Source: the human T2T-CHM13v2.0 reference genome, Homo sapiens
Direction: 5' to 3' (one strand)
Assembly: GCF_009914755.1 (NCBI RefSeq)
Contig: NC_060928.1
DNA: 64,000 nucleotides
This document shows, piece by piece, positions 44,635 to 48,900 of this stretch. Below the pieces are notes generated by a model, which was not told where the DNA came from, made no database searches, and was given only the letters and a program-made list of their open reading frames with translations. The first letter of the stretch is position 1; each line of letters begins with the position of its first letter. Position numbers and translations under genes: made by a program.

Positions 44635-44805
44635 TTTTTTTATTTTATTTTATTATTATTATTATTTTTGAGACAGAGTCTCACTCTGTTGCCCAGGCTG
44701 GAGTGCAGTGGCGCGATCTCAGCTCACTGCAACCTCTGCCTCCTGGGTTCAAGCGATTCTCCTGCTTCAGCCTCCCGAGTAGCTGGGATTACAGGTACCT
44801 GCCAC
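44635..44805 (-). mobile_element. AluS right arm plus tail (half of a split Alu)
   Basis: Poly-T/TTA tail, gagacagagtctc...attacaggtacctgccac, then an abrupt end. Confidence 0.92.
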
Positions 44806-45846
44806 TTGTACCTTATGTACTTCAGATGCATGAAAAGTGTGGGGCTTCTTTGCAAATCTAACTAACAAGCTCTCCGAAAAAGAACCAAGTATATGTACAT
44901 CAGCCAGACATATGCCTCACTTGACAGCTAATCTATTTCTTCCAACACAAATGCTGCAGCATTCATATTATCTATAATGTAAAGAAATGGATGTCATAGA
45001 TAAGCCTTTTGTCTACAGATATACAAAGAAACTTTGCAGTAAGTCTAAAATTAGACAAGAATGTTACACTGGTCACCTTCTGCAGGTCTTTGATCCACAT
45101 CTTCTTCCCCATAATCCCAGGGTAGGCACACTGCAGACCCCTTGGAAAAGTGCAGCCATCCCTACAGGTCCAGTGCTCACCTGGTTATGGAATTTCCTAG
45201 GAATAAGAAGTGGAGCCCCTGCACTTCTTTTTAAGAAAAAACATGATCTTTGGCACACCTAGATCTGAAGGATAATACGGCAGTTTAGGCCAAGCTACTG
45301 ATAGAAAATGGAAACAATGGCTCCAGTTTGGAATGCAGTGGTGTGTGCCCAAGGTGTTCAGCATGATGAGTTAGCATTCAACGCACAAAGTACTAACTAC
45401 AAAGGAAGCCAAAGCTGCCCTGCACCATGAGGTTCAGTGACTTTGATGGTGGTGATACAAATGATGCTTGACACCAATGTGACCTGACTCAATCACTTAC
45501 CCGTAATGTCTTGCTGGATCCCTGTCCCACCCAGCCTTTCTTCACATGCAGCTAAAGGGGCTTGACTTCTGCCTACAATCAACCCTAACCCAGGAACTAG
45601 ACTACTTCTCTTCTTACAGATGATTTAAGTCCTACTTTACAGATGATGAAACTGAGGTCCAGAGAAACTCAGTGCAAGTCTAAGATCAAAGAATTCTAGA
45701 AATCTAGTGTCTGGACTTCCAGTCCAATATAACCAAGGATGGATGAATAAAGAGACTCCATTTATAATGTTAATCTTATGCTAATAAGTGAAAGTGAATG
45801 TAAATCTGTGCATACAGAATGAAAAATAACTAAAAAGGAAAAGTAT

Positions 45847-45982
45847 CGCTGGGCGTGGTGGCTCATGCCTGTAATCCCAGCACTTTTGGAGGCCGAGGTG
45901 GGTGGATCATTTGAGGTCAGGAGTTCGAGACCAGTCTGGCCAACATGGTGAAACCCCACTCCTGCCTCTACTAAAAATACAA
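45847..45982 (+). mobile_element. AluS left arm (other half of the split Alu)
   Basis: gctgggcgtggtggctc...ctactaaaaatacaa, then an abrupt end with no A tail. Confidence 0.92.
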
Positions 45983-48900
45983 GTGGAGAAGGGAGAGGAC
46001 TTATGTAAAGATGCTGGATGGACAGAAATAATTATTTTATACATTTATTCAGCAGTAGTACATGGGCTTCTACAATGTGCCAGACACTGTTCTAGGCCCT
46101 GAAATCAGGGTTTGTAAATCTACCACTTTGTAAATGAGACAAGGTACATGTCAACATAGGTACAAATCTGCATTTGTAGTTAGAAAATAATGGAGGAAAC
46201 AATTTTATATAGCATTTTTCATATTGAACAAGGCAGGTGAAGCTGAAAATGGAAATCTGATATATGAGAAGAGATCTTGGATTATGGTACCCAGGGAGAT
46301 CGGAACCCATCTACAAAAACAGAAGCAAGCAGAAAGAATTATTTTCTGGGCCATCTGTTCCATTGTCTTTTTTCATTCATTAAAAGCTGCAAGAAAGATT
46401 GTTATCCAGAAAAGTATAATGATTGGCAACAATCAATCCAGTTTTTGAGTGAAAATTGTAATTTCTGCATTCTCAGACCTTAAGAACTAACCTGGAGCAA
46501 AGATGTCAAAAATTACACAAGTTGAAAATAAATCAAATGTGCATAAATGTAGGGCAAACTGGAGAAGAAAATCATGACTTGGCAGAGTATAGGCAGTCTA
46601 GGAGGAGAATAAGGGTCACCAGGAAGAGTCCCTTATTAAAAAAAACACAATTTTTTACCATAGATGATCATTACTGCCTAAATTTTCCCCACTTAGGGTT
46701 TCATGCCACTGTGCTCAGGGTTTGTCCTCTATTAAAATATACTTACTCTATGGGAAGATGTCATATATTAATTCCCGTGAGATACAGAGTGATGTTGAAG
46801 AAGGAATGCTGGATTTAATGTTGGGGAGTTTTAATTAAAGTCTAGCCCTATTAGCATGTATGACCATGGGCAAGGCCAGTTACTGAACTCTTTTGGAGTC
46901 TTCATTCCCTCATCTATAAAAAGAAGATGAAGGTGGACCTTTCAGGGTTGTTATGAGCATTAAATAAGATCATCAGATGTATTTGCTGTCTACTTACATG
47001 TCTATCCCAGTATGAATAGTTTATCCAGATATTTCTGCATGTCACCTAGCAGAGTGTAGAGAAATGAGTCAGATAGAGAGACACTCAGTGACTTCATGAA
47101 CGGGAGACAAGATTCCAAATGGTATGGTAGACAGAGCTGGAAACAGTTGAACAGCATCCCTGCTGTGCTTGGAACTGATCAGCAAGGGTGATGAAAGTTA
47201 AAAGTTGAATTACACACTTGGATGTTGCTGTAAAACTGTCTTTGGGATCTTCATCACCAGGAAGAGCCATCTTAAGGAGCTTCTGGTCTTCAGCAACTAA
47301 CTGACCGTTTTCATGTTGTAGAAGAGAGAGTACCAGATTATACTGGAACGTCTTTAGCGAATGGCCAAAGAGAGAAGGTTTTGGTACTTACTACATATAA
47401 GAGAGGTTAGCCAAGCATTTTGTGGTTTCTCTTCAATTTTTCGTTACTTTTTATTATCAGCTGTGAACTTTTTCTCTAACCTCCATGCATTTACTTTAAA
47501 AATTGTCATTACATGTTAAAATTTGACACTACTATGTCACTTTGAGGTATCATCACTCACTAATATGTTTGCTCTGCAGTTCCTGGGGCAAGCAGTCAGA
47601 GAGCCAGTGCTGTCATTCTGGAGCTGATAATACAGAAAAACAGTTCAGGGACAAATAACACATCATAAGTAAAACAAAGAGGAGGAAAAGGGCCAGATTT
47701 CCAGAAGTGGGGAGAAGAGCATGTTTGAAAGAGTGTCACTAGCTAAAAAACATCTTAATCCTCTGAACTAATCAAAACCCTACAGAGGATAAAACATGAA
47801 CGAAACAGAGCCCTTATTTCATCTAAATGACAGACAATGGCACAGTAACTTGAGAAGTTATAGTCGTTATTTGTTTTTTAAAAAATCCTTTTGTAGCAGT
47901 GGGTGAGGTGGAGTTGTTTTGTCCCAAATCATGCTGATACTTCTGAGTTGAGAATTATGCACAGCTAAATCTTAAGATGCATCTCCCCCCGCACCCCAAT
48001 TTTATATCAACAAATGAGAAGAAAAAGAAATAATAGCAAGCATGATTATATCAAACAAACAATAGCTGCTTTTCATCTTCCTTTGCAGTCCACCTGCTAC
48101 CCCTCACCAGCCTGCCTCTGAGAGGCATCTCACCCTGCAGGCTCAAAGACAGCGCCACACCATGTGAGGGCCCTGCACCATGATGCGCGACTGTTTAAGC
48201 AGGTGTTACTTCTCACACTTACATAAAAAATTCAGCCTATTTTTGATTCTTCTCAGGATTTCTACTTGATTTTTTCACGAAGAACCCCTTCTGAATGTTA
48301 ATAGAAAAATTTATCTTTAAAGTATTATAAAGGATAAAACATCATTTTCACAGATTATTTTAATAGCTTTATTATTAGTATCCTCATTGTAATTCTACAT
48401 TTAAAGAGTGTCATTCACGTATGAAGCCGAGTCTATGGGAATTTTCCTCCCCTTTTAAGTTAAAAAAATTATAAGCCATTTCAGGTATTTTACCATGATG
48501 GGAAGTGAATTGGGAAAATGTAGCTCTATTTTTGGAGTCTCATTTTTATATTTAAAGGCATTCCTGAGCTGTGCATGTTGGCAGATGTATTGGTCCTATT
48601 GTTTCTTACTTTTTATAACTTTTACATTTTCAAAATGGCAATAACTTTTTTTCTAGTCACAAAACTAATGCATGTTCATTTTTAAATAACCCGGAACATA
48701 TTACAGAGCTTTTGTAATTCCTAGTCAATACTGCAACATTGTCATCAGAAATGGAATTGCCCATTGAATACCTTTCACATCATGGGGGTTGATTCAATAA
48801 GAAACATATATTATCTTAGTTAATCTTGAAGTTGAATATTTATTTATATATTTTTGGCCCTTTATATTTCTTTTAGGAATGTTTGTGATCTTTGTCCATT

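What the first reader, a model, noticed from the sequence alone, without database searches (positions are those of the whole stretch)
44802..45986. ~1.18-kb inversion splitting one Alu, with a template-switch signature
Seen: a minus-strand Alu right arm stops at gccac (44805) and a plus-strand left arm stops at aaaaatacaa (45982). The junctions carry an exact inverted 9-mer, CCACTTGTA (44802-44810) and TACAAGTGG (45978-45986). Flipping the segment rebuilds a single minus-strand AluS missing ~16 nt of its middle, with a plausible decayed TSD (aatcctttccct / gatacttttcct). Inference: two replication template switches (FoSTeS/MMBIR) using CCAC and TACAA microhomologies, 456 bp downstream of exon 5. 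It postdates AluS insertion and may be lineage-specific or polymorphic.
Basis: partly seen in the sequence, partly recalled or inferred. Interest (0 to 1): 0.72.

Follow-up and report, generated by a model that had tools for sequence, protein, structure and literature searches.

The report
Small intronic inversion splitting one Alu
In an intron of the human SLC4A4 gene, two matching halves of an Alu repeat sit 1.2 kb apart facing opposite ways, likely because one old DNA copying or repair slip flipped the stretch between them; this is a known and probably harmless kind of small inversion.

Summary
The anatomy is real. An Alu right arm (minus strand, consensus 147-280) and a left arm (plus strand, consensus 1-130) lie 1.18 kb apart, 16 consensus bases are missing between them, and both cut ends carry the same 9-mer in inverted orientation. 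Flipping the segment in silico gives one Alu alignment instead of two. An in-place inversion is very likely (~0.93).

A single microhomology-guided event (4 + 5 nt, 16-nt loss) is the best mechanism (0.75). Template switching and staggered-break end joining cannot be told apart. An earlier linker deletion followed by a 9-bp crossover remains possible.

The target-site duplication is not significant: 21% of random pairings score as high. The event is absent from a human-macaque inversion catalogue and a human polymorphism catalogue, so it is probably old and fixed. No primate genome could be aligned here.

It is a new member of a known class: inversions with one breakpoint in an Alu. Side lead: the orphaned antisense right arm has AG and GT splice sites and has lost its repressive left arm, but no such exon is annotated.

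The parts
44186..44346 (+). SLC4A4 coding exon upstream of the event (context)
   Evidence: RefSeq rows supplied with the finding; open frame across the three exons
44613..44623 (-). Candidate 3' copy of a target-site duplication (not significant)
   Evidence: 9 of 11 matches to 45836-45846; 21% of random pairings score as high
44627..44670 (-). Alu A-rich tail (T-rich on +, broken by ATT repeats)
   Evidence: sequence
44671..44805 (-). Alu right arm, consensus 147-280, left in place; 9 mismatches of 134, 8 at CpG sites
44677..44794 (+). Candidate 118-nt antisense Alu exon (AG ends 44676, GT starts 44795); not annotated; would shift the frame
44802..44810 (+). Left junction 9-mer CCACTTGTA (4 nt shared with the right arm, 5 nt with the left-arm end)
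44806..45982 (.). Inferred inverted segment, 1,177 bp (breakpoints float between 44802-45986 and 44811-45977)
   Evidence: middle part has no other long match in the genome
45630..45686 (+). Short old-repeat fragment inside the segment (MIR-like; name recalled)
   Evidence: two 85-89% matches elsewhere in G000
45836..45846 (+). Candidate 5' copy of the target-site duplication (not significant)
45847..45982 (+). Alu left arm, consensus 1-130, with a 6-nt insertion found nowhere else and no A-rich tail of its own
45978..45986 (+). Right junction 9-mer TACAAGTGG

Best explanation
The two Alu halves face opposite ways 1.18 kb apart and are likely one antisense AluS element whose left arm, with about 1 kb of neighbouring intron, was flipped in a single microhomology-guided event that also removed the 16-nt linker, probably before apes and Old World monkeys split. 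Shown: the halves are complementary in consensus position, the gap is 16 nt, and both junctions read TACAAGTGG. Inferred: the ancestor had an intact Alu and, 1.18 kb away, a single TACAAGTGG site, together forming an imperfect inverted repeat with a 16-nt bulge. Synthesis left the Alu after CCAC, re-primed on the opposite strand at the distal site, ran back through the segment and the left arm to TACAA, then returned to the distal site. This flipped the spacer and made both arms of the repeat perfect. Because the first landing point lies ahead of the exit point, the switch would be inter-strand. A 9-nt staggered break at the distal site joined by microhomology to a break in the Alu linker would give the same letters and is counted in this explanation. 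No effect on the protein is expected.
For: Exact inverted 9-mer on both cut ends, 3.7e-6 at fixed positions. Halves cover 1-130 and 147-280 without overlap, and the flip rebuilds one Alu. Of 13 genome loci carrying either junction motif, only this one has the 9-mer in both orientations. The left arm has no A-rich tail, unlike a true left-arm-only insertion seen in L034. Homeology extends inward to 10 of 14 matches at the TACAA switch. A pre-existing in-cis deletion is rare: 3 copies in the 16-nt register among the 10 other matches (my reading), against 130,937 intact linkers. The class is described: 22 human-chimp inversions with an Alu at one breakpoint, microhomology proposed (PMC2603318). 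Age: none of the 20 inversions nested in hg38 chr4:51.8-85.1 Mb in the human-macaque table is 1.0-1.4 kb, and none lies between 70.94 and 72.19 Mb, although 7 of the 20 are under 1 kb (PMC11092980 table S7).
Against: No ancestral sequence was seen; the intact linker and the single distal site are inferred. The target-site duplication is not significant. Subfamily concordance of the halves is uninformative: 5 of 164 sample Alus match both halves, about 3 expected by independence. No old repeat spanning either junction was found, so there is no independent local proof of the old order. Strand skews of the segment are reversed relative to the window but only by about 0.9 and 1.3 SD. Linker deletions ending in the same 9-mer exist in cis (7 of the 10 other matches). 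The age rests on absence from one catalogue of unknown sensitivity and on an approximate hg38 place.
Confidence: 0.75

Rival explanations
1. Two steps: the Alu first lost its 16-nt linker in cis, creating TACAAGTGG inside the Alu; later a crossover between this and the distal inverted 9-mer (part of an 18-nt, 78% complementary repeat) flipped the segment with no loss.
For: In-cis linker deletions giving this 9-mer exist: 7 of the 10 other matches to the left-junction motif run on into a right arm, and L039 is a further 16-nt case. The 18-nt imperfect repeat is pair I12. All 10 registers give one product, as a clean crossover would.
Against: Needs two rare events at the same bases. The 16-nt register occurs about 3 times against 130,937 intact linkers. 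No linker gap under 15 nt appeared among the 77 of 164 sample Alus that the pattern could read.
Confidence: 0.13
2. Two independent insertions: a 5'-truncated right arm and a left-arm-only Alu landed 1 kb apart in opposite orientations, with no inversion.
For: Half Alus are common: 12 left-only and 15 right-only among 290 pieces in 200 kb. L034 shows such a pair side by side. The whole-element target-site duplication is not significant. Absence from catalogues also fits no inversion at all.
Against: Does not explain the 9-mer on both cut ends (3.7e-6). The left arm has no tail. Own target-site duplications score 3.5 and 2.5, below the null median of 4.
Confidence: 0.04
3. Twin-priming retrotransposition of a transcript that ended in an Alu: the inverted left arm and the 1-kb middle came in as one insert from elsewhere.
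For: The order of parts (flank, inverted left arm, foreign DNA, right arm, tail) is the order twin priming gives (inference; mechanism recalled, named in PMC12350158).
Against: No target-site duplication around the whole unit (scores 2.0, -1.0, 0.0). No source copy of the middle in the genome (the search skips common words). The second copy of the 9-mer is unexplained.
Confidence: 0.02
4. The inversion is real but recent (human- or ape-specific, or polymorphic) and the catalogues missed it. This is a rival on age only and overlaps with the mechanisms above.
For: All 18 junction bases are still exact. The smallest of the 10 chr4 rows in PMC10150506 table S1 is 2,966 bp, so 1.2-kb events may be under-called there. 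The human-chimp table of PMC1270012 cannot see it: the locus lies in a large inverted block and the method precludes nested inversions.
Against: Not in the human-macaque table, which does list nested events down to 241 bp in this block. Not among the chr4 GRCh38-versus-CHM13 orientation differences shown (30 of 31 chr4 places seen).
Confidence: 0.22

Closest known systems
Inversions with a retrotransposon at only one breakpoint (63 of 203 non-RRMI human-chimp inversions, 22 with Alu; PMC2603318)
   Same: One ancestral breakpoint inside an Alu, the other in non-Alu DNA, microhomology at the junctions, kilobase size, small loss.
   Different: No species difference is shown here; the loss is 16 nt, smaller than the 94-bp minimum that paper reports; the event looks older than the human-chimp split.
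Four-point template-switch and quasi-palindrome events (PMC7954356; microinversions in PMC8755829)
   Same: An imperfect inverted repeat becomes perfect while the spacer flips; inter-strand geometry.
   Different: Those studies cover short-range events (17-33 nt in PMC8755829) with a known ancestor; here the span is 1.18 kb and the ancestor is inferred from the Alu consensus.
Staggered-break inversions with inverted duplications (models reviewed in PMC7584159)
   Same: A short stretch of one breakpoint appears at both ends in inverted orientation.
   Different: The duplication is only 9 nt and consists wholly of the two microhomologies, so it cannot be separated from templated repair.
Alu-Alu recombination-mediated inversion (RRMI, PMC2603318)
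   Same: Alu sequence at both present-day junctions in opposite orientation.
   Different: RRMI needs two Alus and leaves two chimeric Alus; here the pieces add up to one Alu minus 16 nt.
Small human inversions in long-read cohorts (PMC12350158: 257 simple inversions, median 1,565 bp; 159 with an adjacent deletion)
   Same: Size and junction type fall inside that range.
   Different: Those are polymorphic; this one was not found in the part of that supplement that could be searched.

Membership tests
Inversion with an Alu at one breakpoint only | One Alu spans one ancestral breakpoint; the other breakpoint is not Alu | tested here: met
   Flip rebuilds one Alu; the sequence beyond 45982 and inside 44806 has no other match in the genome
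Inversion with an Alu at one breakpoint only | Microhomology between the Alu and the other breakpoint | tested here: met
   4 nt and 5 nt, together the 9-mer, assuming an intact ancestral linker
Inversion with an Alu at one breakpoint only | Opposite orientation in an outgroup or another haplotype | not testable with these tools
   No other primate genome is held; catalogues read show no row
Alu-Alu recombination-mediated inversion (RRMI) | Two oppositely oriented Alus span both breakpoints and become chimeras | tested here: not met
   Pieces cover consensus 1-130 and 147-280 once each
Four-point template switch (FoSTeS/MMBIR-like) | Product explained by L-1, reverse 2-3, 4-R with identity at both switch points | tested here: met
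   on the inferred ancestor; geometry rule from PMC7954356 passages
Four-point template switch (FoSTeS/MMBIR-like) | Replicative origin rather than break and end joining | not testable with these tools
   Both routes give the same sequence; no templated insertion to separate them (a repeated hexamer at 44795 and 44808 is suggestive only)
Twin-primed (5'-inverted) retrotransposon insertion | Target-site duplication around the whole unit and a source copy elsewhere | tested here: not met
   Scores 2.0 or less; no source found
AluS-type element (label recalled) | Both halves carry the majority S-type letters at variable non-CpG columns | tested here: met
   Majority letter at all 21 variable columns (column 163 is a tie); naming as AluSx or AluSz is from recall, no repeat library was available
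Single Alu insertion | Target-site duplication around the rebuilt element | tested here: inconclusive
   9 of 11; 21% of null pairings reach it, 38% of real Alus score no higher
Exonised antisense Alu right arm | Distal AG after the T tract and GT at the usual donor place | tested here: met
   AG ends 44676, GT at 44795; 13 of 164 sample Alus have both
Exonised antisense Alu right arm | Transcripts that include the exon | tested here: inconclusive
   None among the 12 RefSeq transcripts supplied; RNA-seq could not be examined

The most novel reading that the evidence does not exclude
The inversion is a natural 'one-armed Alu' experiment. It removed the antisense left arm that keeps right-arm Alu exons from becoming constitutive (PMC2330237), leaving a right arm with AG and GT that could add a 118-nt frameshifting poison exon to SLC4A4. 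It also placed the flipped left arm 1 kb downstream, where it is predicted to base-pair over that same GT donor. SLC4A4 output would then depend on a long-range RNA duplex created by the inversion itself.
Probability: 0.06. Interest if true: 0.62.

Novelty: new member of a known kind. Interest (0 to 1): 0.27.

Why it matters
As it most likely stands, it matters little for function: a small, probably old and fixed intronic inversion. Its value is methodological. The Alu consensus acts as a built-in record of the ancestral order, so the breakpoints, microhomologies and 16-nt loss can be read from one genome, even for an event that seems to predate the usual human-macaque comparisons. If New World monkeys keep the old order it is a clean phylogenetic marker. 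If the side lead held, it would show an inversion creating both a poison-exon risk and its own RNA-structure safeguard in a disease gene (disease role of SLC4A4 recalled).

Tried and rejected
Target-site duplication as support: rejected, not above chance (the test has low power, real and null scores overlap). Subfamily concordance of the halves: uninformative. Strand-skew reversal: right sign, under 1.5 SD. Search for an old repeat crossing a junction: only self matches. Search for a small Alu subfamily sharing the 6-nt insertion, to read the ancestral linker: only this locus. Count of left arms ending at TACAA plus a non-A base (5,652 matches): the loci could not be read, and many are probably point changes, so it was not used. 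Lee 2008 supplement: the chr4 row shown is another locus and SLC4A4 does not occur; table S1 covers only the 49 two-element cases (2 of 4 chr4 places seen). Feuk 2005 supplement: cannot see nested inversions. PMC12350158 supplement 2: no matching coordinate, but the file is cut. Paper searches for SLC4A4 with inversion terms gave 0 papers, and none of the 30 of 38 papers listed mentioned SLC4A4. Earlier scan findings were not available.

Full report
Observation. The 9-mer at 44802-44810 is the exact reverse complement of 45978-45986 and the match ends on both sides. To avoid a recalled reference I built a majority consensus from 164 full-length Alus found in 20 stretches of 10 kb of contig C19 (165 found, 1 dropped at a stretch edge). 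The plus-strand piece covers consensus 1-130 with a 6-nt insertion, and the minus-strand piece covers 147-280, so 16 nt are missing. Rfam SRP matches agree on both orientations. Flipping at any of the 10 registers inside the 9-mer gives one product, which aligns as one Alu.

Chance. A 9-mer with an exact inverted partner within 2 kb is ordinary (3.7% of positions); one at two fixed places has probability 3.7e-6. The left-junction motif occurs 11 times in the genome and the right-junction pattern 5 times. Among the 13 loci checked, only this one holds the 9-mer in both orientations. Among the 5 right-junction matches, the other 4 are preceded by a left arm in cis.

What did not hold. The proposed target-site duplication matches at 9 of 11 bases. 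That score is reached by 21% of 600 random flank pairings, by 30 of 164 and 8 of 164 pairings that keep one of this locus's own flanks, and 38% of real Alus score no higher. It is still the best of the arrangements tried: independent halves score 3.5 and 2.5, twin priming 2.0 or less. Both halves carry majority S-type letters, but that is common and does not tie them together. Strand skews of the middle are reversed relative to the window, by only about 0.9 and 1.3 SD. No repeat was found crossing a junction, and the middle has no long copy elsewhere.

Mechanism (inferred). If the linker was intact, the ancestor held CCAC, 16 nt, TTGTA in the Alu and one TACAAGTGG 1.18 kb away: an inverted repeat with a bulge. 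Two switches, at the 4-nt and the 5-nt match, flip the spacer and perfect the repeat. Inner homeology reaches 10 of 14. By the rule in PMC7954356 (passages) a landing point ahead of the exit point needs an inter-strand switch. PMC7584159 (passages) notes that forks can accumulate up to 3 kb of single-stranded DNA, and that staggered breaks and templated repair leave similar inverted duplications. I therefore commit to one microhomology-guided event (0.75) and lean to template switching, but the sequence cannot exclude a staggered break with end joining.

Main rival. Alus can lose this linker in cis. Of the 10 other matches, 7 run on into a right arm (3 in the 16-nt register by my reading), 2 are followed by non-Alu DNA and 1 by a local repeat. 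The intact linker occurs 130,937 times. A prior deletion followed by a crossover across exactly those bases needs two rare events; I give it 0.13. Independent insertions (0.04) and twin priming (0.02) leave the shared 9-mer unexplained. An assembly error was not tested and is thought unlikely, since the junction shows a clean 16-nt loss and unique flanks.

Age. No other primate genome is held, so I read catalogues. An anchor in PMC10150506 (hg38 chr4:87,926,011 is CHM13 91,252,482) puts this locus near hg38 71.35-71.37 Mb, in line with my recall of the gene's place. Table S7 of PMC11092980 (1,972 human-macaque inversions; I read parts 33 and 34 of the supplement, section 9 part 1 and method passages) lists 20 inversions nested in the 51.8-85.1 Mb block, 7 under 1 kb, none of 1.0-1.4 kb and none between 70.94 and 72.19 Mb. 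PMC10150506 (supplement search only) has 10 chr4 rows in table S1, none here, the smallest 2,966 bp, and shows no GRCh38-CHM13 orientation difference here (30 of 31 places seen). PMC1270012 (outline, section 12, supplement searches) cannot see nested inversions. I estimate about 0.75 that macaque shares the human order. This is inference from absence. Supplements I could not see may bear on it: PMC12350158 file 1 (too large) and the cut part of file 2, and the ape T2T and other papers seen only as search listings.

Comparison with what is known. PMC2603318 (parts 1 and 2 of 6 read) describes 63 inversions with a retrotransposon at one breakpoint only, 22 of them Alu, and proposes microhomology; about 30% of its 252 inversions carry deletions. 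PMC12350158 (passages) reports 257 simple inversions of median 1,565 bp and 159 with an adjacent deletion. PMC8755829 (part 1 of 5) covers 17-33 nt microinversions flanked by inverted repeats. The locus fits the first class and fails the two-Alu (RRMI) test. I found no paper on this particular event (the library lacks most subscription papers).

Side lead on splicing. The right arm is antisense to SLC4A4 and has a distal AG ending at 44676 and GT at 44795, bounding 118 nt; 13 of 164 sample Alus have both signals. Inclusion would shift the frame and stop 10 nt into the next exon. PMC2330237 (parts 1-3 of 7) shows that deleting the left arm makes a right-arm exon constitutive, and that a sense-oriented left arm had no effect in the IMP minigene. 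Against: none of the 12 RefSeq transcripts has this exon, the T tract is broken by ATT repeats, and the donor CAG|GTACCT lacks the +5 G (consensus recalled). The flipped left arm is predicted to pair with the right arm (-125 kcal/mol against -73 +/- 7 for 100 shuffles and -75 for the old arrangement; a same-arm inverted pair gives -269). In a fold of 44660-45990, 84 of 135 right-arm bases pair with the left arm at P above 0.5, including the donor. Equilibrium folds over 1 kb are weak evidence. I give the functional reading 0.06.

Verdict. Real feature, very likely an in-place inversion through one Alu; new member of a known kind; probably old and without effect. Interest 0.27.

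Noticed in passing
window 44795-44800 and 44808-44813: The hexamer GTACCT occurs twice, 13 nt apart, across the left junction. The Alu copy holds three departures from consensus, including a double change at one CpG (1 of 282 comparable sites in the sample reads GGTACC). CpG decay can explain it; an extra short templated switch could too, and it is what creates the GT donor.
   Followed up: partly
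L011 about 1485-1520 (G000:C14:99063371, minus strand): An Alu whose linker is replaced by a 17-nt hairpin (8-bp perfect arms around one base), which looks like a local quasi-palindrome template switch.
   Followed up: partly
L034 2093-2400: An older antisense Alu piece directly followed by a sense left-arm-only Alu with its own CAAA-repeat tail: a real look-alike for two independent insertions.
   Followed up: partly
L012 1500-1620 (G000:C16:80929281-80929383): Alu linker expanded by about 84 nt of locally repeated, partly inverted linker sequence with two copies of the junction motif.
   Followed up: no
L007 1350-1640: Left arm ending at the same motif inside what looks like a tandem duplication of the upstream flank and Alu start.
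   Followed up: no
window about 45957-45962: 6-nt insertion in the left arm, 20 nt from the right junction, found nowhere else in the genome with the pattern used; may or may not date from the inversion.
   Followed up: partly
window 26742-27011: A young-looking (Y-type, label recalled) minus-strand Alu with few CpG changes and a 12-nt internal deletion, lying inside the masked stretch 26677-27090.
   Followed up: no
window about 46030-46180: Sequence resembling an old L2 3' end just beyond the right junction (recalled resemblance; the genome search gave only the self match).
   Followed up: partly
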